UHGV virus genome: UHGV-0360526
Direction: 5' to 3' (one strand)
Length of the DNA stretch: 43,707 nt
Origin: a virus
Shown here: piece by piece, positions 4,098 to 37,177 of the stretch
How positions within the stretch are numbered: position 1 is the first letter of the stretch
How the letters are laid out: the number at the start of each line of letters is the position of its first letter
Position numbers and translations under genes: made by a program
The notes under the pieces: model-generated
The model's database searches: none
Told to the model about the DNA's origin: nothing
Seen by the model: only the letters and a program-made list of their open reading frames with translations

Positions 4098-4135
4098 CCC
4101 TCTCTCCGTTTGGAGAGAGGGAGTATTTATTTTTA
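4098..4135 (+). terminator. rho-independent terminator
   Basis: Stem ccctctctcc-gttt-ggagagaggg followed by tatttatttttacg. Confidence 0.75.
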
Positions 4136-4190: not shown

Positions 4191-4526
4191 ATGTGGTTAA
4201 GTGCGATTCACCGTGATTTACCAAAACAAGAAATGGTATTTACTGTTGGCGAGCCAGCAACTGTAGTGGGTGTTGCTAAGTTCGAAAGGGTAGAAGAAGG
4301 CCAATTCGTCGTAGTGGACGACAACGAAAATGAATTCATGTTGTTCCACCCTGAGGTCGATACCTCTGAAATTTGTGAGGGTTCTCTTTTGTTGTCCTGG
4401 CAAGATCCTGAAACCGGCGCATGGAAGTGGCGTGTCGCTAAACCGACGCTTGAAACAGAATCTGCATACGTGACTGAACACGTATACGTGTTTGGGGAAA
4501 CTTATGTCGAACCAAAACCACACTAA
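4191..4526 (+). CDS. hypothetical protein
   Basis: 111-aa ORF; RBS gaggaa upstream of ATG. Confidence 0.5.
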   Translation: MWLSAIHRDLPKQEMVFTVGEPATVVGVAKFERVEEGQFVVVDDNENEFMLFHPEVDTSEICEGSLLLSWQDPETGAWKWRVAKPTLETESAYVTEHVYVFGETYVEPKPH

Positions 4527-4812: not shown

Positions 4813-4831
4813 TGACAGTCTAAAAAACTTA

Positions 4832-4862
4832 AGATATATTTCATCTATGTGAGAATTCTCAC
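4832..4862 (+). promoter_or_regulatory. conserved promoter-like motif (AGATATAT..TT.C.TA.G) plus 5' hairpin, copy 1
   Basis: aagatatatttcatctatg followed by hairpin gtgagaattctcac, 24 nt before ATG 4886; same motif and hairpin arrangement recur at 18688 and 23073. Confidence 0.45.
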
Positions 4863-4885
4863 TTAACTAAATGGAGTAATCTAAA

Positions 4886-5155
4886 ATGGGTAAGATTTAT
4901 ATTGTTGAGAAACGTGCGGGTAATGTTCTTTCCTATTACGAAGAAGGTAAACCTGAGAAAATTAAAACACTCAAACTCGACGGATTTGATGTGAAGAGTT
5001 TACGCAAGGGTGTGAAGATTACCTTTAAAGGTCTGACTCGCGTAAGTAACTTACACATTGTTAAGGCCGATGGTACGATGGTTGCGTTAGCACCTGTCAG
5101 TGCTGCGAAAACGACAGCAGGTCGTGGATGCTACGGTAGCAGTCGTAAGATTTAA
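4886..5155 (+). CDS. hypothetical small basic protein (monocistronic unit)
   Basis: 89-aa ORF bracketed by promoter-like motif upstream and terminator downstream. Confidence 0.6.
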   Translation: MGKIYIVEKRAGNVLSYYEEGKPEKIKTLKLDGFDVKSLRKGVKITFKGLTRVSNLHIVKADGTMVALAPVSAAKTTAGRGCYGSSRKI

Positions 5156-5161
5156 GCAGTG

Positions 5162-5200
5162 CCCCTCTCTCCGTTAGGAGAGAGGGTACTTTTATTTTTC
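5162..5200 (+). terminator. rho-independent terminator
   Basis: Stem cccctctctcc-gtta-ggagagaggg followed by tacttttatttttc; stem nearly identical to terminator at 4098. Confidence 0.75.
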
Positions 5201-10887: not shown

Positions 10888-13800
10888 ATGGCTAAAGCGG
10901 TAAAGAAAATTCGTTTACACGATTTACGTCCGTACACCGGCGATATCGGTGAAGGCGTTTTACTTTTTTCGAAAGACGAAAGGGATTATCAGTTACCTGT
11001 CCGAGAGATTGTTGCGGATATTGACACCGTCAGAAACGCGGTTGCTGACGCACAAACGGCTGCAGCCAAATCGCAACAGTCTGCAACAGAAGCTACGCAA
11101 GCAAAAGACTTAGCAGAAGCAGCGAAGCAAGAAACTGACACGTTAGCTTCCACCATTAGCGAGCAAGCGAAAACCGTTGCTACTAAAACTGCTGAGGTTA
11201 GCAAAAAACACGCTGAAGTTTTAGCCGCGAAAACTGCCGTAGATACCGTATCACAATCGGTAAATGAGAAAGCTCAAGCTGTTGCCACAAGCGAACAATC
11301 GGTGACGGCCGCAGTGGCAGATGTAACTAAGAAAGCAGAAACGGTTACGCAAAAAGCCGGGCAAGTACAACAGACGGCTACCAGTATCGCAAATACCGCA
11401 GCTTCAGTTGAGGCCAGTAAGGGCGCAGTGGAAAAGGTTGCTGCGCAGGTCACGAAAGATAAAGAAAGCTCAGAAGGCGCAGCTACGCGCTCGGAATCAG
11501 CTGCACTGCGTGCGGAGAAAATCGCTGCACAGGGCTTAATCGACGCTAGTACGACTGGTAAAGGTATCGTTAAACTTAACAATACCCTGACTAGCGAATC
11601 CGTGACGGAGGCTGCTACACCGTCTACAGTTAAGCAGTTGAATGACGAACTACAGTTAAAGGCTAACAAACATTCGCCGAATTTTACGGGTAAGCCGACG
11701 TCACCAACACCCCCGAAAGATTCAAACGACACGAGCATCTCCACAACGGCTTGGGTGCGTGCCGCGATTGCGGAATTGGTTGGGTCTTCACCTGAAACGT
11801 TAGATACCTTAGCGGAATTAGCCGAGGCGTTAGGTAATGACCCTAACTTCGCGACTACGATTACTGAGAAACTTGCGCAGAAGCAACCTATCAGTCCGCT
11901 ACTCACCGCTATTGCCGCAGTCACATCCGCAGCAAACAAGCTCCCCTATTTCACCGGTGCTAATAAAGTCGGATTAACTGACTTTACAGAAACAGCCAGA
12001 ACCCTGTTAGCGAAAGGGACAACTGCGGATATCATCAATTTCTTGGGATTAAAGGCCACTGTAGATAAAGCGAATGGCGCGTTACAGAAAAACTCTAACG
12101 GCGCTGATATCCCAGATAAAGAAACGTTTGCCCGCAATATCGGCCTATCGCCTGACACCTATCTGCGTTTCCGTGGCGAAATGCCTCTAGATGCTGATAT
12201 TAACACATTTGCTCCAAATACCAATTACACAGGAACGTGGGCTAAGTCGACATCAACCAATGCGTCGATGGCAAAACACTTCCCAGAAGACGGTGCGGTC
12301 GGTTATCTGGAAGTGTATAAAGCCGGTAATTACAGCGGTGCGCAACGTTTTACCTGTCGTAATGGTAACGTGTACAACCGTATGTTGTCAGGTGCGTGGA
12401 ATGGTGCCAATGGACCCTGGTCACCGTGGAGAATGGTAACTACTGGTGTACGTCCGTTATCTACCTCTATAGACTTGAACTCTCTGGGTGGCGCTGAGCA
12501 TATGGGTAACTGGCGAAACTCGTCCAGTTCGCTGGCTGTTTTTAGCAGACATTACCCTGAAGAAGGTGGTGGCGCGCAAGGCGTACTAGAAGTAATGGAA
12601 GGTGGTCTTTTCGGACGGTTGCAACGATACACCACACGTCGTGGTACGATGTATGTTCGTGGTTTGACCGCAACATGGGATTCATCAAACCCGCAATGGG
12701 AAGATTGGATTCAGGTTGGTTATCAGACTGACGGTGCTTTCTTTAAAGCCAATTTTAACGATCTCGTTAAACCGGGACGTTTCAGTGTCACTGGTGAAGC
12801 AACTAATGGTCCACTTACCGGTTCTTCTGGTGAAACCATATTAGGCGTTTGTGAAGTTACCTTACGCTTAGACGGTACAGGGGTCGAACAGAATTATACT
12901 ACATACGGTACGGGTGTAGAAACTAAAGGTCGTAAATTCCAACGTATCCGTACGGGTAACGCTTGGAGTGACTGGCGTGAGGTTTTCACATCGTATTCGC
13001 TTCCGCTGGTATTAGGTATCGGCGGTGAACGTGCGAATGTTGATCCTTTAGACTGGCAAACCTATGACTTTAAACCGGGTGAGTTAATCTGTACGCCGCT
13101 TAACACCATGAAAAACATTCCTGCGGGAATGGATTGGGGTGTTATTGACGGTAACTTAGTTAGCATTCTGGTTGGTCCATCAGATGGCGCATCCTCAGGC
13201 CGGAGTATGTTGGTTTGGCGTAGTACGGTGTCTACTGCCAACTATCGATTCTTTGCAGTACGTATCGCTGGTGAGAAAGGTAGTCGTACGATTACGCCAC
13301 GACAGATGCCTGTATTGAATGCAGCACACACCTGGGCAGAAAAACAGACCTTTGCAAAAGGGTTAGCAGGCGAGTTAACAGGCAATGCTTCAACCGCAAC
13401 GAAATTAAAGACCGCACGTAGAATTGGTGGAGTCGCTTTCGACGGTAGTGGTGATATTAACCTCCCAGGTGTTAACCAACAGGGCAATCAAAACACCACG
13501 GGTAATGCTGGTACAGCCACTAAACTTCAAACCGCCAGAAATATTAACGGTGTGAGGTTCGATGGTTCTGCTGACATCAACATCAACACTCTGGTGGGCC
13601 GTGGTCGGGTTACTGCTCTATCCGGATCAAACAAAGGTACGCCCGGTATTCAGATGTACGAAGTTTACAATAACGGTTATCCGACCGCTTATGGTAACTT
13701 GCTGCATTTGGGCGGTTCTACCGCAGTGGGTGAAGGTGAACTGTTAATCGGTTGGTCGGGCACGAGCGGTGCGCACGCACCCGTTTATATTCGTAGTCGT

Positions 13801-15486
13801 CGAGACACTAACGATGCACCGTGGTCAGATTGGGCACAAGTTTATACTGCCCGTGACAGTATTCCTGGTGTAAATGCTACCGGTAATCAAGATACTACCG
13901 GCAACGCCGCTACCGCGACGAAACTGAAAACCGCTCGCAGAATCGGCGGCGTTACCTTTGACGGTACTGGGGATATCAATTTACCAGGGGTTAACCAGCA
14001 AGGCAACCAGAATACGACAGGTAATGCAGCAACCGCTACCAAGTTACAAACAGGACGTAGGATCGGTGGTGTGGTTTTCGATGGGACGAAAGACGTTAAT
14101 CTTCCTGGAGTAAACCAAGCCGGTAACCAACCGACTACGGGGAATGCTGCGACTGCGACTAAGCTCCAGACTGCACGAAATATAGGTGGCGTAGCTTTTG
14201 ATGGCACTAAGGACATCAATTTACCTGGCGTAAACCAGACGGGTAATCAGTCGACCACCGGAAACGCGGCCACTGCAACAAAGTTGCAAACTGCAAGAAC
14301 CATCAACGGTATTGCGTTTGACGGCACTAAAAACATCGAAATAACGGCTGAGAGTTTAAATCTTGGTCAAACTGTAGAATTGGCCGGTGGGTCATTGCAG
14401 AAGAAACAGAACGGTGCCGATATTCCAGATAAAAGGAAATTCTTACGAAATGTTGGTGCCCCGAACACAACAACCATATCTTTTAATGGTGGTGCCGGAT
14501 GGTTCAAACTGGCAACTGTAACGATGCCACAAGCCAGTTCCGTGGTTTACATAAGCATGATTGGCGGTGCAGGGTTTAACGTTGGTTCCCCGCATCAAGC
14601 GGGTATTTCTGAGCTGGTTCTGCGCGCCGGGAATGGAAATCCAAAAGGTATCACTGGTGCTTTATGGCGACTGACCTCAGTCGGCTTTACTAATTTTGCA
14701 TGGGTGAATACATCTGGTGACACCTACGATATTTATGTTGAAATAGGTAATTACGCCACGGGTGTTAACATTCAGTGGGATTACACCAGTAACGCCAGCG
14801 TAACGATCCATACAACGCCAAGTTATACGGCTAATAAACCAGCAGGACTAACAGACGGAAACGTCTATCTGATTTATAGCACACACAACAAACCTAACGC
14901 TGGTGACATCGGTGCATTACCGTCAGGGGGCGGTACTATAGGTGGCGATTTAACCGTTAACGGTAAATTGGTCACTAAGTACCCTGATTTTCGAATCGCT
15001 TACGGCAACTACGGCTTTATGTTACGTAACGATGGTGCCAATACCTATTTCTTAGTAACCGACGCCGGACAAGCTGCAACGGGTTCCTGGAACGGACTAC
15101 GTCCGTTGTATTTTAATAACGCTAACGGCCAAGTAACCTTTGGTCATAACGTTACTGGCAGCGGTAACGGTTCGTTTAACGACGTACAGATTCGTTCTGA
15201 CCGTCGTAACAAACGTAATCTGGTGAAACTGGATAAAGCTTTGGATCGGTTAGAGTTACTAACCGGTTATTTGTACGAAATTCAGCATCCGGATGACGGT
15301 TGGCAAACCTCTGTAGGTCTAATTGCTCAAGACGCATTAGAAGCGTTACCTGAACTTGTGTCTGAGGATGATGATGCCATTTCAGGCGAAAAACGTTTAC
15401 GTCTAAATTACAATGGTGTTATTGCGCTGTTAGTAGAGGGTATGAAGTCTCTTCGCCGAGAGCTTAAAGAGCTTAAGGAGAAATAA
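10888..15486 (+). CDS. long tail fibre protein with tandem fibre repeats and C-terminal intramolecular chaperone (peptidase S74-like) domain
   Basis: 1532 aa; Ala/Thr/Gln-rich coiled-coil-like N-terminal region; six ~40-aa repeats (GNQxTTGNAATATKLQTARxIGGVxFDGTxDINLPGVNQ); C-terminal SDRRNKRN...GLIAQD...LRLNYNGVIALLVEG resembles the autoproteolytic chaperone domain of phage fibres/endosialidases. Confidence 0.8.
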   Translation: MAKAVKKIRLHDLRPYTGDIGEGVLLFSKDERDYQLPVREIVADIDTVRNAVADAQTAAAKSQQSATEATQAKDLAEAAKQETDTLASTISEQAKTVATKTAEVSKKHAEVLAAKTAVDTVSQSVNEKAQAVATSEQSVTAAVADVTKKAETVTQKAGQVQQTATSIANTAASVEASKGAVEKVAAQVTKDKESSEGAATRSESAALRAEKIAAQGLIDASTTGKGIVKLNNTLTSESVTEAATPSTVKQLNDELQLKANKHSPNFTGKPTSPTPPKDSNDTSISTTAWVRAAIAELVGSSPETLDTLAELAEALGNDPNFATTITEKLAQKQPISPLLTAIAAVTSAANKLPYFTGANKVGLTDFTETARTLLAKGTTADIINFLGLKATVDKANGALQKNSNGADIPDKETFARNIGLSPDTYLRFRGEMPLDADINTFAPNTNYTGTWAKSTSTNASMAKHFPEDGAVGYLEVYKAGNYSGAQRFTCRNGNVYNRMLSGAWNGANGPWSPWRMVTTGVRPLSTSIDLNSLGGAEHMGNWRNSSSSLAVFSRHYPEEGGGAQGVLEVMEGGLFGRLQRYTTRRGTMYVRGLTATWDSSNPQWEDWIQVGYQTDGAFFKANFNDLVKPGRFSVTGEATNGPLTGSSGETILGVCEVTLRLDGTGVEQNYTTYGTGVETKGRKFQRIRTGNAWSDWREVFTSYSLPLVLGIGGERANVDPLDWQTYDFKPGELICTPLNTMKNIPAGMDWGVIDGNLVSILVGPSDGASSGRSMLVWRSTVSTANYRFFAVRIAGEKGSRTITPRQMPVLNAAHTWAEKQTFAKGLAGELTGNASTATKLKTARRIGGVAFDGSGDINLPGVNQQGNQNTTGNAGTATKLQTARNINGVRFDGSADININTLVGRGRVTALSGSNKGTPGIQMYEVYNNGYPTAYGNLLHLGGSTAVGEGELLIGWSGTSGAHAPVYIRSRRDTNDAPWSDWAQVYTARDSIPGVNATGNQDTTGNAATATKLKTARRIGGVTFDGTGDINLPGVNQQGNQNTTGNAATATKLQTGRRIGGVVFDGTKDVNLPGVNQAGNQPTTGNAATATKLQTARNIGGVAFDGTKDINLPGVNQTGNQSTTGNAATATKLQTARTINGIAFDGTKNIEITAESLNLGQTVELAGGSLQKKQNGADIPDKRKFLRNVGAPNTTTISFNGGAGWFKLATVTMPQASSVVYISMIGGAGFNVGSPHQAGISELVLRAGNGNPKGITGALWRLTSVGFTNFAWVNTSGDTYDIYVEIGNYATGVNIQWDYTSNASVTIHTTPSYTANKPAGLTDGNVYLIYSTHNKPNAGDIGALPSGGGTIGGDLTVNGKLVTKYPDFRIAYGNYGFMLRNDGANTYFLVTDAGQAATGSWNGLRPLYFNNANGQVTFGHNVTGSGNGSFNDVQIRSDRRNKRNLVKLDKALDRLELLTGYLYEIQHPDDGWQTSVGLIAQDALEALPELVSEDDDAISGEKRLRLNYNGVIALLVEGMKSLRRELKELKEK
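13381..14361 (+). repeat. in-frame tandem coding repeats (~120 nt / 40 aa) within the tail fibre gene
   Basis: Two copies at 13381-13590 and four at 13882-14361 encode GNQxTTGNAATATKLQTARxIGGVxFDGTxDINLPGVNQ; copies differ mainly at synonymous positions. Confidence 0.8.
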
Positions 15487-18635: not shown

Positions 18636-18641
18636 ATTTTA

Positions 18642-18687
18642 GGTAGTAGGGGCTTAGCCCCTACTACCTTTCTTTTTTTATTTTTTC
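18642..18687 (+). terminator. rho-independent terminator
   Basis: Stem ggtagtagggg-ctta-gcccctactacc followed by tttctttttttattttttc. Confidence 0.8.
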
Positions 18688-18732
18688 TCAGATATATATT
18701 ACCTAGAGGAGAGCGAAATTTACATTCGCTCT
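18688..18732 (+). promoter_or_regulatory. conserved promoter-like motif plus 5' hairpin, copy 2
   Basis: tcagatatatattacctag followed by hairpin agagcgaa-atttaca-ttcgctct; 28 nt before ATG 18760. Confidence 0.45.
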
Positions 18733-18759
18733 ATTAGTTATAGCCGAAAGGAGGATTAG

Positions 18760-19611
18760 ATGTATCACCCGTATTATCTCCCGCACATTCTAGCAAATAG
18801 GGACCCCGGTTATTACTACGAACAAACAAAAGGATCTTTTAATCGGCTCTACATTCGCGAATTTAATATCGATGAAATGACGGACGACCAGTATCTGGAG
18901 TATCTAAAAGACCTTTACGGTTTTTCAAAATCGAATAAAGGTGACTTTGGACGTTCCGCAGTCATTAGAGACGGCGAATATCGTCATTTGGCTAAGCCTG
19001 TTACGTACCCTATTGTTACACGCGCTTATACATCGGATAGGCAATATATCGCTGAGCTAAAATTTCCATTGCGGATAGACGGGCCCCAAATTAGCGCTAT
19101 AGAAGTAGAGATTCAACCAATTGCTGAAGACTATATTGAAGACTACTTCAAGAAAGCTAAAGACGTGCTCGAGGAGGGTTTAAGCTACTCTGAAGAAGGA
19201 ACGATTTGTCTTCTCTCGTTACTCTCGAAGACTTACGTCACAGCAAATTTTCGTATCTCCGATTCCAGTAACTACAATACACTTACCCCCTCTAAAACAA
19301 AACCTGTTTATTGGGACGATCGGTTAGTCGACAGACAACGCTGGCTTACTATCTTAGATATGGTAGAATTCGAGCCTCCTAAACACACCGAAGACAATTT
19401 TATTTTATTGCACAACTTCGAACCGATCTATATCCCGACGCATTTTGATCAAGCCTTACGTCATCGGTTGAAGTATGTGTTGGAATTACGGTACGGAAAG
19501 ATAAACGGACTAACCTGTTCCGGTGAATTGGGCGAAGAAGAACGCGAGAAGATAAAAATCGTGTTTGATAAATTAGTTGAAGATTACATTAAGAAGGAAG
19601 GGCAATTATGA
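18760..19611 (+). CDS. hypothetical protein
   Basis: 283-aa ORF with strong RBS aaggagg. Confidence 0.6.
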   Translation: MYHPYYLPHILANRDPGYYYEQTKGSFNRLYIREFNIDEMTDDQYLEYLKDLYGFSKSNKGDFGRSAVIRDGEYRHLAKPVTYPIVTRAYTSDRQYIAELKFPLRIDGPQISAIEVEIQPIAEDYIEDYFKKAKDVLEEGLSYSEEGTICLLSLLSKTYVTANFRISDSSNYNTLTPSKTKPVYWDDRLVDRQRWLTILDMVEFEPPKHTEDNFILLHNFEPIYIPTHFDQALRHRLKYVLELRYGKINGLTCSGELGEEEREKIKIVFDKLVEDYIKKEGQL

Positions 19612-20842: not shown

Positions 20843-20948
20843 CAAATACGCCCAGTTGTTTGATAAGTTTTGTAACGAGATGAGAGAAATTCGAAATCTT
20901 AAATAACGAAGGTTTAATTACCCCACCATTTACCTAAAGGAGCATTAA

Positions 20949-21464
20949 ATGTCAGTAAATATTAACATGAATCTTTACACTAAACGTGAACGTCAGATTC
21001 TGGCGAATCAACCTGGTGTTACGACTATCGACGGTAAACCTATTGACCGTTTAAAAGTTATCGTTGCGCGAAATTGTCATGAACACGATTGGGATATCAC
21101 CTACTTCCGTTGCTGTTCGGTCGCAAACGCGCTTACTCAACTCTCTAACTATCACCCAGGACCGCTATTAAAAGACTGGGTTTGGTTAGTGCCAAGAACA
21201 CCCTCAGCAATTGAGTATCCTTCTGGGTTAGTCTATATTCGCCCCGTTGCTTACCCAGAACGCCTAAAGGAATATCTTGAAGTTATCTGGAACCGTCCTC
21301 GTAAAGAGCTGGCGACGATTATTAATTTACTGCAGCAGATCGATATCCCCGGCGTTTCGGATTTGAAACTCACGTCTCGTGATATTAACCAGGCTTACTG
21401 GGAACTGGAGTGGACTGAACCGAAATTCGAAAACACTAACCGCATCTTCTTGCACCGGGGGTAA
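20949..21464 (+). CDS. hypothetical protein
   Basis: 171-aa ORF; RBS aaaggag. Confidence 0.55.
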   Translation: MSVNINMNLYTKRERQILANQPGVTTIDGKPIDRLKVIVARNCHEHDWDITYFRCCSVANALTQLSNYHPGPLLKDWVWLVPRTPSAIEYPSGLVYIRPVAYPERLKEYLEVIWNRPRKELATIINLLQQIDIPGVSDLKLTSRDINQAYWELEWTEPKFENTNRIFLHRG

Positions 21465-22790: not shown

Positions 22791-23061
22791 AACTATTGTA
22801 TTTTGTCAAAACGGTGATGTAAAACAATACCGGGGCAAGAAGTTAATTCGTACGTTAGAATACCGAGAAGCAAAACGTTTTGTTGAAGAGTGTGCGTGGT
22901 TGATGCACTACGAAGGGAACTATCGCGCCATCTTAGAAGCACCGCGTTTAGAACGTGCAGTTGCGCAGATGGCGATAGGTAATCCTAAGAACTGTTACCT
23001 GGCCCGTAAGCCAAAATACCTACAGCGTGTCTCGCTAGGTAGTTTTATTGCAGGATTTTAA
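22780..23061 (+). CDS. hypothetical protein (start uncertain; listed ORF begins 22732)
   Basis: In-frame ATG at 22780 with RBS gggag; overlaps upstream stop. Confidence 0.4.
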   Translation: MKRETIVFCQNGDVKQYRGKKLIRTLEYREAKRFVEECAWLMHYEGNYRAILEAPRLERAVAQMAIGNPKNCYLARKPKYLQRVSLGSFIAGF

Positions 23062-23072
23062 TAAAAATAATT

Positions 23073-23113
23073 TCAGATATATATTACCTAGGTGAGAGTA
23101 CAAAAGCTCTCAC
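23073..23113 (+). promoter_or_regulatory. conserved promoter-like motif plus 5' hairpin, copy 3
   Basis: tcagatatatattacctag identical to copy at 18688, followed by hairpin gtgagag-tacaaaag-ctctcac; 29 nt before ATG 23142. Confidence 0.45.
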
Positions 23114-23141
23114 TTAACGAACCATTTTAGGAGAATATACC

Positions 23142-23408
23142 ATGAACTTCACTAAAGCTGATTATGCTAAAGAATTCGTTTCTAAAGAAGATTACAAGTT
23201 TACTGTTGAACTAGACTACGTATTAACTGAAGATGAAAAAGATGCGCTGTATAAAGCGTTCCGCAAACACTTCGGTGCGTTGTTCTTTATGGGTTTCCGT
23301 AAAGACTCTATCGATATTGGCTATACTGTCGCAGTACGTACCGATGAGGAAATGTTCAATATGGTGTGTGAAATCGTCAGTACCATTACTGCTAAACGTG
23401 CGATTTAA
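23142..23408 (+). CDS. hypothetical small protein (monocistronic unit)
   Basis: 88-aa ORF with RBS aggag, bracketed by promoter-like motif and terminator. Confidence 0.6.
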   Translation: MNFTKADYAKEFVSKEDYKFTVELDYVLTEDEKDALYKAFRKHFGALFFMGFRKDSIDIGYTVAVRTDEEMFNMVCEIVSTITAKRAI

Positions 23409-23430: not shown

Positions 23431-23462
23431 AGGGTAAGGGATTCTCTTACCCTATTATTTCG
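23431..23462 (+). terminator. rho-independent terminator (moderate)
   Basis: Stem agggtaaggg-attct-cttaccct followed by attatttcg. Confidence 0.55.
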
Positions 23463-25833: not shown

Positions 25834-25867
25834 AGGGGTGACAATTCACCCCTCTATTATTGTTTTT
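25834..25867 (+). terminator. rho-independent terminator
   Basis: Stem aggggtga-caat-tcacccct followed by ctattattgttttt. Confidence 0.7.
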
Positions 25868-25885
25868 ACCTAAAGGAGTATTAAA

Positions 25886-26317
25886 ATGTTTTTCGTATTA
25901 AATGATGAATTTCGTAACTACATTCGTAACAACCCTATTGCTCTGGGCGTTTTAGCAGGTTTCTGTCGTCCAAATACTGATTTCGATTTAGTTAAGTTAG
26001 AAGAATATCAGGAAATTGTGAATACTAACTACTTGCACATCTGTAGCTGGGGTAAACGTCCTCGCGAAGAGTACCCTATCGGTGAGTTAGGTGACAGTAT
26101 GCATCGTGACCAGAATCTGATGCACGAATTCGTTGAATACACACTGGAAAATCTTAACTATCCGCTTCTGGTCGACACTGTACCAGAAATGGTTGACGAA
26201 TGGTTAAGTCGTGTTTACAACGATCCTACTGCCAGCACTCTACTGAGTCAGATGTCGCAAACTTCTCGTGATATCGACACCCGGACCCTGATGTACTTAG
26301 CACACAACGTTCGTTAA
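25886..26317 (+). CDS. hypothetical protein, paralog of ORF 24238-24666
   Basis: 143 aa; RBS aaaggag; aligned motifs with the 24238 product. Confidence 0.55.
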   Translation: MFFVLNDEFRNYIRNNPIALGVLAGFCRPNTDFDLVKLEEYQEIVNTNYLHICSWGKRPREEYPIGELGDSMHRDQNLMHEFVEYTLENLNYPLLVDTVPEMVDEWLSRVYNDPTASTLLSQMSQTSRDIDTRTLMYLAHNVR

Positions 26318-26380: not shown

Positions 26381-26485
26381 TTATTTTGACGCTACGTTAC
26401 TTACCTTCTACTCGGCTATTCCTATGCTGGCTGAGGGATGTAAAACGACCTCTTAAACCTTTTTTACTTATTGTGAGTTAACGCG

Positions 26486-27828: not shown

Positions 27829-27862
27829 AGGGTGGGGTAATCCCACCCTCTTTTCTTTTTTT
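27829..27862 (+). terminator. rho-independent terminator
   Basis: Stem agggtgggg-taat-cccaccct followed by cttttctttttttg. Confidence 0.8.
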
Positions 27863-29834: not shown

Positions 29835-29875
29835 TACCCTACTCCCGATAAGGAGTAGGGTAGTTTTTATTATTC
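29835..29875. terminator. bidirectional terminator between convergent genes
   Basis: Stem taccctactcc-cgataa-ggagtagggta flanked by A/T runs on both sides; lies between plus-strand stop 29751 and minus-strand stop 29870. Confidence 0.7.
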
Positions 29876-31628: not shown

Positions 31629-31641
31629 GAAAAAATAAAAA

Positions 31642-31682
31642 TACCTACCTCCTATTACGGGAGGTAGGTATACTTTTTTTTC
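31642..31682. terminator. bidirectional terminator between convergent genes
   Basis: Stem tacctacctcc-tattacg-ggaggtaggta with A-run upstream and T-run downstream; between plus-strand stop 31628 and minus-strand stop 31691. Confidence 0.8.
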
Positions 31683-36160: not shown

Positions 36161-36367
36161 TTACCTTCCCCCCGCACCTTTACTACAGCTACCACTGCAC
36201 GACCAGCTACATCCGCCGTTACAGTTATAATGGCTTAAAGGTAAACCGGCAAGGTTATTGGTTGAAGACACGGTGCCCTGGTTTGCAATATAGTTGTTTG
36301 CGTTAGCGGTCGTAATATACCCTTCCGCTGTTACTAACCGATCACGAAGGTTCTTAAGGCTAATCAC
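36161..36367 (-). CDS. CxxxC-repeat Cys-rich peptide 3 (short core)
   Basis: Listed ORF 36161-36433 overlaps peptide 2 out of frame; GTG at 36367 preceded by gggagg gives VISLKNLRDRL..., matching the leaders of peptides 1 and 2; core CNGGCSWSCSGSCSKGAGGR. Confidence 0.5.
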   Translation of the reverse strand: MISLKNLRDRLVTAEGYITTANANNYIANQGTVSSTNNLAGLPLSHYNCNGGCSWSCSGSCSKGAGGR

Positions 36368-36369
36368 AA

Positions 36370-36768
36370 TTACCTCCCAGAACAGCCACCGGAGCAAGCA
36401 CCAGAGCAGCCTGCAGAACAGTTTCCTACACACGAGTTAGAACAACTCCCCGTACAGCTTCCTGAACAGCCACCAGAACAGGTATTCGAACATCCACTAC
36501 AGCCTGCACTACAACCTGATACACAGTTTGCAGAACAGGAAGAACCACAGCCGCCTGATGCGTTCCCTGTACAACCACCAGAACAGCTCGAACAGGTCCA
36601 GCTACAGCTCCCACCACAGTCATAGTGGTTGCGAGCTTGCCCACCGAATAAGTCTGCGTTGTTCGTCGCTTTCCCACGAATATAGTTTTGTACTGCACCC
36701 GTATTCTTCAATGCAGTGTTGTCAATGTTATTTAGCCGCGCTTGTAGCGCAGGTAATCCAATTGCCAT
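36370..36768 (-). CDS. CxxxC-repeat Cys-rich peptide 2 (putative radical SAM substrate)
   Basis: 132 aa; ~50-aa leader MAIGLPALQARL... then ~80-aa core of about 20 Cys, mostly in C-x-x-x register with Ser/Gly between. Confidence 0.6.
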   Translation of the reverse strand: MAIGLPALQARLNNIDNTALKNTGAVQNYIRGKATNNADLFGGQARNHYDCGGSCSWTCSSCSGGCTGNASGGCGSSCSANCVSGCSAGCSGCSNTCSGGCSGSCTGSCSNSCVGNCSAGCSGACSGGCSGR

Positions 36769-36778
36769 TTTTCACCTC

Positions 36779-37177
36779 TTAGGTTGGGCCAGAACAGCCA
36801 CCGGAGCAAGCACCAGAACAACCCGTAGAACAACGGCCCGAGCAAGCACCTCCACAGGTCCCACTGCAACCTGAGCAGCCGCCGGAACACGTTGAACTAC
36901 ATCCAGTACACTGGTTACCACACGCGGATGAACAGCTACCTACACACACCGACGTACAGGTGCCCGAACAACTCGTACAGCCATGCGTACAACCGTTTGA
37001 GCACGTCCAGCTACAGCTTCCCCCGCAGTCTAACCGACTTGGCGTCCAACCCGAAAAAGTGTCGGCGGCATTATGTGCTTTCGACGCAACTTGCGGATCA
37101 ACACGTGGGCCAGTTGCCATTTGGTTCTCTACGTTGGTGATTCGGTCACGTACATTTTTAACACTGATCGCCATCAC
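36779..37177 (-). CDS. CxxxC-repeat Cys-rich peptide 1 (putative radical SAM substrate)
   Basis: 132 aa; leader MMAISVKNVRDRI...SRLDCGG then core with 21 Cys (CSWTCSNGCTHGC...CSGACSGGCSG); RBS aagga; ATG at 37174 also possible. Confidence 0.6.
   Translation of the reverse strand: MMAISVKNVRDRITNVENQMATGPRVDPQVASKAHNAADTFSGWTPSRLDCGGSCSWTCSNGCTHGCTSCSGTCTSVCVGSCSSACGNQCTGCSSTCSGGCSGCSGTCGGACSGRCSTGCSGACSGGCSGPT

What the first reader, a model, noticed from the sequence alone, without database searches (positions are those of the whole stretch)
18688..18732. Three-copy conserved promoter-like motif followed by a 5' hairpin at fixed distance from start codons
The motif (C/A)AGATATAT(A)TT.C.TA.G occurs at 4832-4849, 18688-18706 and 23073-23091 (the last two identical over 19 nt). 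Each is followed directly by a 7-8 bp stem hairpin (4849-4862, 18710-18732, 23092-23113) and then an ATG 24-29 nt later. It is not an obvious sigma70 -35/-10 pair, so it may be a phage-specific promoter (phage RNAP or modified host RNAP) with a transcript-stabilising 5' hairpin, or an RNA processing site. A related TTACCTAAAGGAG.ATTAAA leader precedes the ATGs at 20949 and 25886.
Basis: seen in the sequence. Interest (0 to 1): 0.6.

Follow-up and report, generated by a model that had tools for sequence, protein, structure and literature searches.

The report
Jumbo-phage early promoter with 5' hairpin
The repeated motif is the early promoter used by the RNA polymerase that phiKZ/SPN3US-type giant phages carry in their virions, a known kind of element; the new detail is that it is joined to a conserved RNA hairpin at the very start of the transcript.

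Summary
TCAGATATATATTACCTAG occurs twice exactly (18688-18706, 23073-23091). A diverged copy lies at 4832-4848. Each copy is intergenic, points at the next gene, and is followed by a hairpin and then a Shine-Dalgarno/ATG.

The window comes from an uncultured relative of Salmonella phage SPN3US and Erwinia jumbo phages. These are phiKZ-related and encode multisubunit virion and non-virion RNA polymerases.

The motif contains the phiKZ early-promoter core TATATTAC. It matches the 201phi2-1 and OBP early-promoter consensus nearly base for base. It was the only DNA in a 7-kb stretch of the window (17.5-24.5 kb) that matched known phages. The best reading is therefore a virion-RNA-polymerase early promoter with its start site at the GTG/AGG just after the motif.

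The hairpin is a conserved structure, not a conserved sequence. Across 44 distinct copies, 90% of stem cells pair, 7 of 8 pairs show compensatory changes, G.U pairs lie on the sense strand, and loops vary freely. I read it as a 5'-terminal RNA stem-loop that most likely protects early mRNAs from 5'-end-dependent decay. That function is inferred, not shown.

The 'TTACCTAAAGGAG' leader is a ribosome-binding region, not a promoter relative. The promoter is a new member of a known kind. The coupled hairpin seems undescribed.

The parts
18641..18679 (+). Intrinsic terminator (13-bp GC-rich stem plus T-run) that closes the upstream tail-fibre operon, directly before promoter copy 2
   Evidence: (terminator scan)
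18682..18706 (+). Early promoter copy 2. The core AGATATATATTACCTAG lies at 18690-18706 and contains TATATTAC at 18695-18702. Upstream is a T-rich tract shared with the terminator.
   Evidence: 38.8 bits, E=2.5e-6
18707..18709 (+). Inferred transcription start region (AGG) for copy 2, uncertain by about 2 nt
   Evidence: Inference from the 201phi2-1/phiKZ motif TATATTAC-N5-TG, whose end coincides with the start-site region. Not measured.
18710..18732 (+). 5' hairpin of copy 2: AGAGCGAA / ATTTACA loop / TTCGCTCT, 8 bp
   Evidence: whole-leader fold -13.4 kcal/mol. Orthologues carry GAGTGAA/TTCACTC, a compensatory C-G to U-A change.
18748..18762 (+). Shine-Dalgarno AAGGAGG (18748-18754) and the ATG (18760) of a 283-aa protein of unknown function (ORF 18760-19611)
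23013..23047 (+). Terminator-like hairpin (TACCTA...TAGGTA plus TTTTATT) just upstream of promoter copy 3
   Evidence: (family D9)
23060..23091 (+). Early promoter copy 3. Upstream A-rich element AATAAAAATAATTTC, then core AGATATATATTACCTAG at 23075-23091, with TATATTAC at 23080-23087. 36 nt (23060-23095) are 100% identical to SPN3US 65398-65433.
   Evidence: 48.4 bits, E=1.3e-8
23092..23094 (+). Inferred transcription start region (GTG) for copy 3, uncertain by about 2 nt
   Evidence: Inference from phiKZ/201phi2-1. Not measured.
23092..23113 (+). 5' hairpin of copy 3: GTGAGAGT / ACAAAA loop / GCTCTCAC, 8 bp including one U.G pair
   Evidence: -12.1 kcal/mol, z=-3.45. Orthologues keep the stem and replace the loop with TCAGTT or TCAGCT.
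23129..23144 (+). Shine-Dalgarno AGGAG (23129-23133) and the ATG (23142) of an 88-aa protein (ORF 23142-23408). A terminator-like hairpin follows at 23431-23453.
4822..4848 (+). Diverged promoter copy 1. A-tract AAAAAACTTA, then core AGATATATTTCATCTAT at 4832-4848 (13 of 17 positions match). Its activity is uncertain.
   Evidence: 18.5 bits, E=0.16. Conserved exactly in four related contigs. The SPN3US homologue of the downstream gene is also preceded by a promoter-like motif.
4849..4862 (+). 5' hairpin of copy 1: GTGAG / AATT loop / CTCAC, 5 bp. The inferred start site is within 4849-4851.
   Evidence: whole-leader fold -7.3 kcal/mol, z=-2.65
4873..5199 (+). Shine-Dalgarno GGAG (4873-4876), the ORF 4886-5155 (89 aa, PHROG 12339, unknown function) and the terminator 5163-5199. 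Together with promoter copy 1 and its hairpin (4822-4862) these form a one-gene unit.
   Evidence: family D3
20930..20951 (+). TTACCTAAAGGAGCATTAAA + ATG: a ribosome-binding region, not part of the promoter family
25866..25888 (+). TTACCTAAAGGAGTATTAAA + ATG: a ribosome-binding region that follows a terminator-like hairpin at 25834-25853

Best explanation
The window is part of the genome of an uncultured phiKZ-related jumbo phage of the SPN3US/Asesino group.

The motif (A/T-rich tract)-TTTC-AGATATATATTACCTAG is an early promoter of the kind recognised by the multisubunit RNA polymerase that these phages package in the virion and inject with their DNA. Transcription most likely starts at the GTG (AGG in copy 2) directly after the motif. 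That places the TATATTAC core at about -14 to -7.

The first 20-25 nt of the transcript fold into a stem-loop that begins at or within a few nucleotides of the 5' end. A short linker, a Shine-Dalgarno sequence and a small early gene follow.

The hairpin acts as RNA, or at least as the sense strand. Its most likely role is to leave no single-stranded 5' end for RppH or RNase E, so that early phage mRNAs last longer in an enterobacterial host.

Shown here: the motif, its family, its position relative to genes, and the conservation and covariation of the hairpin. Inferred: the polymerase that uses it, the exact start site, and what the hairpin does.
For: Identity of the phage:
- The 1727-aa virion protein is 52-56% identical to proteins of Erwinia phage Asesino and the SPN3US-like phage SPFM11.
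- The window shares markers with the SPN3US 100-150 kb region: the radical-SAM gene, gp168 (the homologue of the 1727-aa protein, same length), and gp112.
- It is 81-95% identical in DNA to IMG/VR contigs of 220-225 kb. These contigs encode a 76-77% identical homologue of SPN3US gp241, the virion RNA polymerase beta-N subunit (PMC5105663).

Identity of the motif:
- It contains TATATTAC, the phiKZ early-promoter core.
- TTTCAGATATATATTACCTAGGTG fits the 201phi2-1 consensus TTTRARR-BTATATTACDWHDGTG and resembles OBP/N1M2 TTTCARRYAKATATTATYWAAGTG (PMC7058600 Table 2).
- Reviews state that such ~10-nt AT-rich motifs, centred near -10, are the early promoters used by the virion polymerase in every jumbo phage of this group that has been profiled (PMC7598289; PMC8244752; PMC11512511).
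- phiKZ itself shows TATATTAC-N5-TG at 7 intergenic sites in its first 50 kb.

Distribution:
- In a megablast of window 17.5-24.5 kb, the motif was the only part that matched known phages.
- blastn of the 66-nt site found 275 places in 76 phage records; the matches listed are almost all unannotated, i.e. intergenic.
- The exact 17-mer occurs 39 times in IMG/VR, mostly on contigs of 220-260 kb.
- In SPN3US all 10 covariance-model hits are on the + strand. The nine I checked against the annotation lie in intergenic gaps less than about 100 nt upstream of a co-oriented gene.
- In the window all 3 sites are intergenic and co-oriented, and none lies in the late structural region on the minus strand.

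Start site:
- SPN3US sites of the related 'class B' type have their Shine-Dalgarno only 14-19 nt after the motif. The start must therefore lie right after the motif.

Hairpin:
- The 36 unique downstream segments have a mean z-score of -2.3.
- The sense strand folds better than the antisense strand (-7.05 against -5.36 kcal/mol, p=8e-5).
- An uninterrupted stem of at least 6 bp starting at +1 to +5 is present in 24 of 36 segments, against 9-19% of shuffles; stems contain 25 G.T pairs.
- On the model-based alignment, 89.9% of cells pair, against 72.8% in shuffles and 40-56% when the partner is slid. Seven of 8 pairs change on both sides, 44 cells are compensatory, and 0 of 500 shuffles reach these values.
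- The orthologue of copy 3 keeps the stem and replaces the loop, while the protein it drives is only 56% identical.

Stabiliser role:
- 5'-terminal stem-loops and low single-stranded content at the 5' end slow RppH/RNase E-dependent decay in E. coli (PMC7509114 citing Emory et al. 1992; PMC11541907).
Against: - No transcript 5' end, polymerase requirement or timing has been measured for this clade. Everything about use rests on homology to phiKZ and 201phi2-1.
- The window itself contains no RNA polymerase gene.
- Copy 1 changes several positions of the otherwise invariant core (ATATTACC to ATTTCATC) and scores only E=0.16, so it may be weak or inactive.
- The hairpin is not universal. About a quarter of class-A copies in relatives lack a good stem. 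Only about 3 of 7 phiKZ sites have one. SPN3US class-B sites mostly lack it.
- The model-based alignment used for the pair counts leans towards the structure it was fitted to.
- G.T pairs would equally stabilise a hairpin in the non-template DNA strand.
- Nothing here measures mRNA half-life.
Confidence: 0.8

Rival explanations
1. The motif is a promoter, but for the non-virion phage RNA polymerase or a modified form of it. That would make it a middle-class promoter rather than an early one used by the virion polymerase.
For: The polymerase was not identified here. The motif comes in two variants in SPN3US (class A TATATTAC with hairpin, class B GATATTATCT without), which could mark two temporal classes. 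In 201phi2-1 not all promoters fitted the expected temporal class.
Against: Mapped phiKZ middle and late promoters look different: AAAATTACC or TACT near -22, and TATG at +1. The TATATTAC type is the class shown to be early and independent of protein synthesis in phiKZ.
Confidence: 0.08
2. The motif is an ordinary host sigma-70 promoter, with TATATT serving as the -10 hexamer.
For: The consensus scan finds TTAATA-16-TATATT over copy 3, matching 9 of 12 positions.
Against: Such weak matches are no more frequent than in shuffles (29 found against 33 expected). Copies 1 and 2 have no -35 match. Conservation covers more than 25 contiguous nt, including positions a sigma-70 holoenzyme does not read, and it persists across phages whose proteins are only about 50% identical. 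phiKZ-type infection does not depend on the host polymerase.
Confidence: 0.04
3. The inverted repeat works at the DNA level or during transcription, not as an mRNA stabiliser. It could be part of the extended promoter or initially transcribed region that helps the sigma-less virion polymerase to initiate or escape, for instance by forming a nascent-RNA or non-template-strand hairpin that prevents backtracking or R-loops. Alternatively it could be an operator for a shut-off protein.
For: The 5' arm (GTGAGAG or GTGAGAT) is itself highly conserved and adjoins the promoter. The hairpin goes with class A but not class B sites. G.T pairs fit non-template DNA as well as RNA.
Against: Stem sequences differ widely between copies within one genome and covary, which a sequence-specific operator protein would not tolerate. 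The hairpin extends to about +25, beyond an initiation bubble. Some apparently intact promoters lack it.
Confidence: 0.15
4. The hairpin is an early attenuator or terminator that yields a short 5' RNA of about 25 nt, or it is an RNA processing site.
For: Many copies in SPN3US and Erwinia phages have a 3-4 nt T-run right after the stem, e.g. TAATCTTTTAAC. phiKZ and 201phi2-1 make short 5'-UTR-derived RNAs by premature termination. The scan lists 18710-18732 as weakly terminator-like.
Against: The three window copies have no U-run after the stem (ATTAGTT, TTAACG, TTAACT). Stems are AU-rich and short. The reported phiKZ short RNAs are 71-141 nt. RNase III needs much longer duplexes.
Confidence: 0.07

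Closest known systems
Early promoters of phiKZ and 201phi2-1 used by the virion RNA polymerase (core TATATTAC; Ceyssens 2014, Wicke 2020 and Putzeys 2024 as cited in PMC7598289, PMC8244752 and PMC11512511)
   Same: Same TATATTAC core. Same spacing to a conserved (G)TG at the start region. Same upstream TTT-purine and A-rich elements. Same placement in front of operons of small genes of unknown function. The phage lineage encodes the homologous multisubunit virion polymerase.
   Different: The conserved block is longer and almost invariant here (AGATATATATTACCTAGGTGAG). It is coupled to a covarying hairpin at the start of the transcript, which only about 3 of 7 phiKZ sites showed. Start sites are not mapped in this clade.
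Predicted early promoters of OBP and N1M2 (TTTCARRYAKATATTATYWAAGTG; PMC7058600)
   Same: Same overall layout. The 'class B' variant seen in SPN3US (CAGATAGATATTATCT) matches this consensus.
   Different: The window copies carry the TATATTAC variant, not TATTAT. Those promoters are predictions only.
5'-terminal stem-loop mRNA stabilisers in enterobacteria (ompA 5' UTR, Emory et al. 1992; the stem-loop at the start of phage T7 phi10 transcripts, recalled from memory)
   Same: A hairpin at or within a few nt of the 5' end of an mRNA in an enterobacterial host, followed by a single-stranded linker and the ribosome-binding site. Structure matters rather than sequence.
   Different: No half-life data here. 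The hairpin is attached to a promoter for a multisubunit virion polymerase, and its 5' arm overlaps the conserved start region.
Hairpin promoters used by the virion RNA polymerase of phage N4
   Same: A virion-packaged polymerase transcribes early genes from promoters associated with a short inverted repeat.
   Different: In N4 the hairpin is the recognition element itself. It lies upstream of +1, has a 3-nt loop, forms in DNA, and is read by a single-subunit polymerase. Here recognition is by a linear AT-rich motif and the hairpin lies downstream of the start, with loops of 3-8 nt.

Membership tests
phiKZ-type jumbo-phage early promoter (virion RNA polymerase) | Highly conserved ~10-nt AT-rich core (TATATTAC or close variant) centred about 10 nt upstream of the start | tested here: met
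   Exact TATATTAC at 18695-18702 and 23080-23087, inside a 17-19 nt invariant block. Copy 1 has TATTTCAT instead, so this feature is met for two of the three copies.
phiKZ-type jumbo-phage early promoter (virion RNA polymerase) | Further conserved A/T-rich elements near -20 and -30, and a conserved G/TG at the start region 5-7 nt after the core | tested here: met
   TTTC plus an A-tract lies upstream in copies 1 and 3. Copy 2 has a T-tract there. GTG or AGG follows 5 nt after the core. The whole fits the 201phi2-1 consensus TTTRARR-BTATATTACDWHDGTG.
phiKZ-type jumbo-phage early promoter (virion RNA polymerase) | Intergenic, co-oriented with and just upstream of operons of presumed early genes; absent from late structural operons | tested here: met
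   All 3 sites in the window qualify. All 10 model hits in SPN3US are on the + strand, and the nine checked against the annotation qualify. Downstream genes are small and of unknown function. Their early timing itself was not measured.
phiKZ-type jumbo-phage early promoter (virion RNA polymerase) | The phage encodes and packages a multisubunit virion RNA polymerase | tested here: met
   The window itself holds no polymerase gene. Contigs 81-95% identical to it in DNA encode a 76-77% identical homologue of SPN3US gp241, the virion polymerase beta-N subunit (PMC5105663).
phiKZ-type jumbo-phage early promoter (virion RNA polymerase) | Primary 5' ends mapped at the motif; transcription resistant to rifampicin and independent of new protein synthesis | not testable with these tools
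   No transcriptome for this clade was found in the held literature.
5'-terminal stem-loop mRNA stabiliser | A stem-loop that starts within 0-4 nt of the transcript 5' end | tested here: inconclusive
   Stems start 1-5 nt after the 17-nt motif core (AGATATATATTACCTAG). That is at or next to the inferred start, but the start site is not measured.
5'-terminal stem-loop mRNA stabiliser | Structure rather than sequence is conserved, on the sense (RNA) strand | tested here: met
   89.9% of cells pair, 7 of 8 pairs have compensatory changes, and no shuffle of 500 reaches this. The sense strand is more stable than the antisense. Stems hold 25 G.T pairs. Loops are replaced between orthologues.
5'-terminal stem-loop mRNA stabiliser | Lengthens mRNA half-life by blocking 5'-end-dependent RppH/RNase E attack | not testable with these tools
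   Needs half-life measurements on stem mutants.
N4-type hairpin promoter (virion polymerase) | A DNA hairpin upstream of +1 with a 3-nt loop as the recognition element, read by a single-subunit virion polymerase | tested here: not met
   The hairpin lies downstream of the conserved linear motif, loops are 3-8 nt, and stems vary in sequence. The lineage has a multisubunit virion polymerase.
Host sigma-70 promoter | -35 and -10 hexamers spaced 16-18 nt apart | tested here: not met
   Only copy 3 gives a 9-of-12 match. Such matches are not enriched over shuffles.
Intrinsic terminator / attenuator | GC-rich stem followed directly by a U-run | tested here: not met
   None of the three window hairpins is followed by a U-run. 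One is listed only marginally by the scan.
Any curated RNA family (Rfam 15) | A match at the family's gathering score | tested here: not met
   There are no matches in the whole window. Only chance-level hits (E=0.2-0.9) appear around 18.6 kb.

The most novel reading that the evidence does not exclude
The class-A early promoters of SPN3US-like nucleus-forming jumbo phages form a portable cassette: promoter, obligatory 5'-terminal RNA hairpin, then leader. The hairpin would then do more than stabilise the transcript in a generic way. It would be a specific mark of transcripts made by the injected virion polymerase. Possible uses are promoter escape by a sigma-less enzyme, export of early mRNA from the early-infection vesicle, or preferential ribosome loading. 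That would give a handle on how the first phage mRNAs are made and handled before the phage nucleus exists.
Probability: 0.12. Interest if true: 0.75.

Novelty: new member of a known kind. Interest (0 to 1): 0.38.

Why it matters
- For annotation: the motif marks the starts of early transcription units in an uncultured SPN3US-like jumbo phage. The model built here finds such starts in related genomes.
- For biology: the promoter block of about 40 nt stays almost identical between phages whose proteins are only about 50% identical. This implies very tight co-evolution with the virion polymerase.
- For the hairpin: the coupled, covarying 5' hairpin appears not to have been described. It suggests that these phages protect or mark their very first mRNAs. 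It is a simple, testable element: disrupt and restore the stem, then measure start site, yield and half-life.
- For applications: the promoter-hairpin-leader cassette could serve as an expression module specific to infected cells.

Tried and rejected
- A loose IUPAC search for the motif was not significant (7 matches against 3.8 expected). TATATTAC with one mismatch was no commoner than chance. Only the long exact block and the covariance model discriminate.
- A position weight matrix built from exact-core copies was biased by the way the copies were selected, so it under-scores variants.
- RNAalifold on an ungapped MAFFT alignment of 26 leaders predicted no structure, because loop lengths differ. 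I replaced it with a covariance-model alignment and with alignment-free stem statistics.
- The primary phiKZ promoter paper (Ceyssens 2014) and the supplementary start-site tables of two transcriptome papers are not held. The exact offset of the start from TATATTAC therefore had to be inferred.
- No paper in the library contains the motif string.
- The hairpin does not generalise to phiKZ: only about 3 of 7 sites in its first 50 kb show one. The rest of that genome was not fetched.
- I tested whether the TTACCTAAAGGAG leaders mark paralogous genes or a phiKZ-like middle promoter (AAAATTACC). The two proteins are not related. The spacing would put a start inside the coding sequence. The string is simply a Shine-Dalgarno region.
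- The genes downstream of the cassettes in the window and in SPN3US are not homologous.
- A possible degenerate copy near 26460 was read and dismissed.
- Rfam gave nothing.
Full report
**1. What is in the sequence**

The three sites exist as described.
- TCAGATATATATTACCTAG is present at 18688-18706 and at 23073-23091. The similarity extends to 26 nt at 92% identity (family D14).
- The third site, AGATATATTTCATCTAT at 4832-4848, shares 13 of 17 core positions and the following GTGAG.
- All three lie in intergenic gaps on the + strand, upstream of + strand ORFs that start at 4886, 18760 and 23142.
- Copy 2 sits directly after a strong intrinsic terminator (18641-18669 plus T-run) that ends a tail-fibre operon.
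- Copy 3 follows a weaker terminator-like hairpin (23013-23047).
- Copies 1 and 3 drive single small ORFs (89 and 88 aa) that are themselves followed by terminators (5163-5199; 23431-23453).

The hairpins fold as follows.
- 5 bp plus a 4-nt loop at 4849-4862.
- 8 bp plus a 7-nt loop at 18710-18732.
- 8 bp plus a 6-nt loop at 23092-23113.
- The leaders have z-scores of -2.4 to -3.5 against dinucleotide shuffles.

A loose version of the motif is not rarer than chance. The long exact block is. A covariance model of promoter plus hairpin finds exactly these three sites in the window and nothing else on either strand. Their scores are 48.4, 38.8 and 18.5 bits.

**2. Where the window comes from**

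- The window encodes long tail-fibre proteins, a radical-SAM protein and a 1727-aa virion protein.
- The virion protein is 56% identical to a protein of Erwinia phage Asesino and 52% identical to one of the SPN3US-like phage SPFM11.
- Several window genes have homologues in SPN3US between about 100 and 150 kb: gp112, the radical-SAM gene and gp168.
- No known phage shares DNA similarity with window 17.5-24.5 kb except over the 36-46 nt of the motif itself.
- Metagenomic viral contigs of 220-225 kb are 81-95% identical to the window. They encode a 76-77% identical homologue of SPN3US gp241.
- gp241 is the beta-N subunit of the virion-packaged multisubunit RNA polymerase, shown by mass spectrometry and amber mutants (PMC5105663).

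The window is therefore a piece of an uncultured phiKZ-related jumbo phage of the SPN3US/Asesino group.

**3. What the motif is**

phiKZ-related phages transcribe their early genes with the injected virion polymerase. They do so from promoters with a well-conserved AT-rich element centred near -10. Such a motif can be found in every phage of the group, and it proved to be the early promoter wherever transcripts were profiled (PMC7598289; PMC8244752; PMC10914365; PMC11512511).

The published consensus sequences are (PMC7058600 Table 2):
- phiKZ: TATATTAC
- 201phi2-1: TTTRARR-BTATATTACDWHDGTG
- OBP/N1M2: TTTCARRYAKATATTATYWAAGTG

The window sequence TTTCAGATATATATTACCTAGGTG fits the 201phi2-1 consensus at essentially every position. 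In the first 50 kb of phiKZ I found seven TATATTAC sites. All are intergenic, on the + strand, and of the form TATATTAC-N5-TG.

The same block recurs widely.
- blastn of the 66-nt site found 275 places in 76 phage records. Nearly all are Salmonella (SPN3US-like), Erwinia, Escherichia and Proteus jumbo phages, and the matches listed are almost all unannotated, i.e. intergenic.
- The exact 17-mer occurs 39 times in IMG/VR, mostly on contigs of 220-260 kb. About 30 of these copies share the same flanks.

In the complete SPN3US genome, the class-A form AGATATATATTAC(C/T)TAG+GTGAG lies at 4427, 56294, 65413, 94239, 113986, 165687 and 223277. A related class-B form, CAGATAGATATTATCT, matches the OBP-type consensus. 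It lies at about nine further sites. Those I checked against the annotation lie on the + strand in gaps just upstream of genes, although 25226 falls inside annotated CDS SPN3US_0030.

The promoter block of about 40 nt is conserved far better than the proteins. This is what one expects of a site read by a conserved phage polymerase.

**4. Where transcription probably starts**

No start site has been mapped in this clade. I infer it from three points.
- In 201phi2-1 the motif ends at the start-site region, and the AT-rich core lies about 10 bp upstream of it.
- In phiKZ the core is centred near -10.
- In SPN3US class-B sites the Shine-Dalgarno lies only 14-19 nt after the motif. The start must therefore be close to the end of the motif.

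By these arguments the start falls within GTG (23092-23094 and 4849-4851) or AGG (18707-18709). The uncertainty is about 2 nt.

**5. The hairpin**

Across the 36 distinct sequences that follow class-A motifs in the window, SPN3US and the IMG/VR loci:
- The first 32 nt fold at a mean of -7.0 kcal/mol, with a mean z-score of -2.3 against shuffles.
- The sense strand is more stable than the antisense strand (-7.05 against -5.36 kcal/mol; Wilcoxon p=8e-5).
- An uninterrupted stem of at least 6 bp that starts 1-5 nt after the motif is present in 24 of 36 sequences, or 16 of 27 sequence clusters. In full shuffles the figure is 9% (maximum 25%). With the conserved first 8 nt held fixed it is 19% (maximum 42%).
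- Stems contain 25 G.T pairs.

More than ten different stem sequences occur. Examples are GAGATTAC/GTAATCTC, GAGAGTTA/TAACTCTT, GAGCGTTA/TAACGCTT, AGATGAG/CTCATCT, TGATAGA/TCTATCA and AGAGCGAA/TTCGCTCT.

A covariance model seeded with seven copies recovered 50 sites, all in the sense orientation. Pair counts on its alignment:
- 89.9% of stem cells pair, against 72.8% in column shuffles and 40-56% with the partner slid by 1-3 columns.
- 7 of 8 pairs change on both sides.
- 44 cells are compensatory.
- 0 of 500 shuffles reach any of these measures.

That alignment is fitted to the structure, so the counts lean towards it. The alignment-free statistics point the same way.

Orthologue comparisons are telling.
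- Copy 2 has AGAGCGAA/TTCGCTCT where its relatives have GAGTGAA/TTCACTC.
- Copy 3 keeps GTGAGAGT...CTCTCAC while the loop ACAAAA is replaced by TCAGTT or TCAGCT. The 88-aa protein it drives has drifted to 56-57% identity.

Selection therefore acts on pairing, on the sense strand.

The hairpin is not universal.
- About a quarter of class-A copies lack a good stem.
- SPN3US class-B sites mostly lack one.
- Only about 3 of 7 phiKZ sites have one.
- No Rfam family matches.

**6. How it most likely works**

I commit to the following model. The injected virion polymerase recognises the linear AT-rich motif and starts at the GTG. The nascent RNA folds at once into a stem-loop that includes, or lies next to, its 5' nucleotide. 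This leaves RppH and the 5' sensor of RNase E no single-stranded 5' end. The early mRNAs therefore last longer.

Early mRNAs are often tiny one-gene units bounded by terminators. With a hairpin at the 5' end and a terminator stem at the 3' end, both ends of such an mRNA are structured.

The background is established. 5'-terminal stem-loops stabilise E. coli mRNAs (Emory et al. 1992, cited in PMC7509114). The first nucleotides and the single-stranded content of the 5' UTR govern RppH-dependent decay (PMC11541907). T7 phi10 transcripts also begin with a stem-loop; I recall this from memory and did not check it.

The promoter assignment is strong, at about 0.9. The stabiliser role is an inference, at about 0.5.

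Rivals for the hairpin:
- A role in initiation or escape by the sigma-less polymerase, or in the non-template DNA strand. The conserved 5' arm and the link to class A speak for this.
- A short attenuated RNA. T-runs follow many stems in relatives, but none does in the window.

Rivals for the motif:
- A promoter of the non-virion polymerase. The mapped middle and late motifs of phiKZ are different.
- A host sigma-70 promoter. Only one copy gives a weak match, and such matches are not enriched.

**7. The 'related leader'**

TTACCTAAAGGAG(C/T)ATTAAA-ATG occurs at 20930 and 25866 and is far beyond chance. However:
- It consists of AAGGAG placed 6-7 nt from the ATG.
- The two proteins are unrelated.
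- The same string precedes genes in relatives, and similar strings (TAATCTAAAGGAGTATT) precede many SPN3US genes.

It is a strong translation-initiation region. Its likeness to the TTACCTAGAGGAG of copy 2 is most simply a coincidence of a promoter end with AGGAG.

**8. Status of copy 1**

Its core departs from the otherwise invariant ATATTAC, and its score is marginal. Three points speak for a real site.
- It has the A-tract, the GTGAG and a start-proximal hairpin.
- It is conserved base for base in four related contigs, across a breakpoint in the upstream sequence.
- The SPN3US homologue of its downstream gene, gp112 (45% identical), is also preceded by a promoter-like motif, TTTTCAGATAGATGTTATTTTA, at the same place.

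I regard it as a probable weaker or variant promoter.

**9. Novelty and verdict**

The promoter is a new member of a well-known kind. A specialist in jumbo phages would recognise TATATTAC at once.

What appears unreported is the tight coupling to a covarying 5'-terminal hairpin. No paper in the held library contains the motif string, and none of the jumbo-phage papers I read describes a hairpin at these promoters. The portability of the promoter-hairpin-leader cassette in front of unrelated early genes also seems undescribed.

This is a modest but testable addition. Interest 0.38.

Noticed in passing
L039-L043 (SPN3US genome): 15614, 23810, 25226, 28969, 72486, 72684, 109885, 184044, 191602: SPN3US carries a second promoter-like variant, CAGATAGATATTATCT. 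It matches the OBP/N1M2 consensus rather than the phiKZ one. It usually lacks the 5' hairpin and has a shorter leader. One copy lies in front of the polymerase genes gp34/gp35 (gp35 is the non-virion beta' subunit). Intermediate forms such as CAGATAGATATTACCTTA+GTGAG+hairpin occur in relatives (L047:3110). The two variants may mark two promoter strengths or two timing classes.
   Followed up: partly
SPN3US 56338, 57149, 65458, 94283, 114033, 167595, 223321, 224200; Erwinia-phage loci L006, L013, L036, L037: A conserved box CGAC(T/C)AT (GACTATCAAGGA in Erwinia phages) sits between the 5' hairpin and the Shine-Dalgarno in many leaders. CGACTAT is strand-biased in SPN3US (25 on the + strand, 8 on the - strand). 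The leader of window copy 3 has the related GAACCATTTTAGGAG. It may be a translation-enhancing or protein-binding leader element.
   Followed up: partly
window 4860-4869 and 23111-23120: CACTTAAC follows the hairpin directly in copies 1 and 3 and in their orthologues. UUAAC resembles the start of the T7 gene 10 'epsilon' translational enhancer, which I recall from memory. The likeness was not tested.
   Followed up: no
window 4098-4134, 5163-5199, 29838-29874: A family of near-identical intrinsic terminators, CCCTCTCTCCGTTnGGAGAGAGGG plus T-run. It recalls the conserved terminator motifs reported for phiKZ and 201phi2-1.
   Followed up: no
window 18641-18669, 27829-27849, 29835-29862, 31641-31671: Terminator-like hairpins with T-runs on both strands, so possibly bidirectional. 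Those at 29835-29862 and 31641-31671 lie where + and - strand genes meet; the other two lie between + strand genes. Terminator-like sites are twice as frequent as in shuffles (33 against 16).
   Followed up: no
window 36377-36868 (minus-strand ORFs 36161-37177): Tandem 12-nt repeats (CCAGAACAGCCA and variants) in two blocks about 400 nt apart. They overlap several minus-strand ORFs, so they may encode a repetitive protein segment.
   Followed up: no
window 23142-23408 versus L018:7521-8003 and L026:328-813: The 88-aa gene driven by copy 3 is only 56-57% identical to its orthologues. In those relatives a second, 44-45% identical paralogue follows in tandem. This accessory early gene evolves fast behind an almost invariant promoter-leader cassette.
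   Followed up: partly
window 10888-15486: A 1532-aa tail-fibre protein matches 61 PHROG families in separate stretches. Its GC content (0.46-0.49) is higher than that of its neighbours (about 0.42). This suggests a mosaic, exchanged receptor-binding gene.
   Followed up: no
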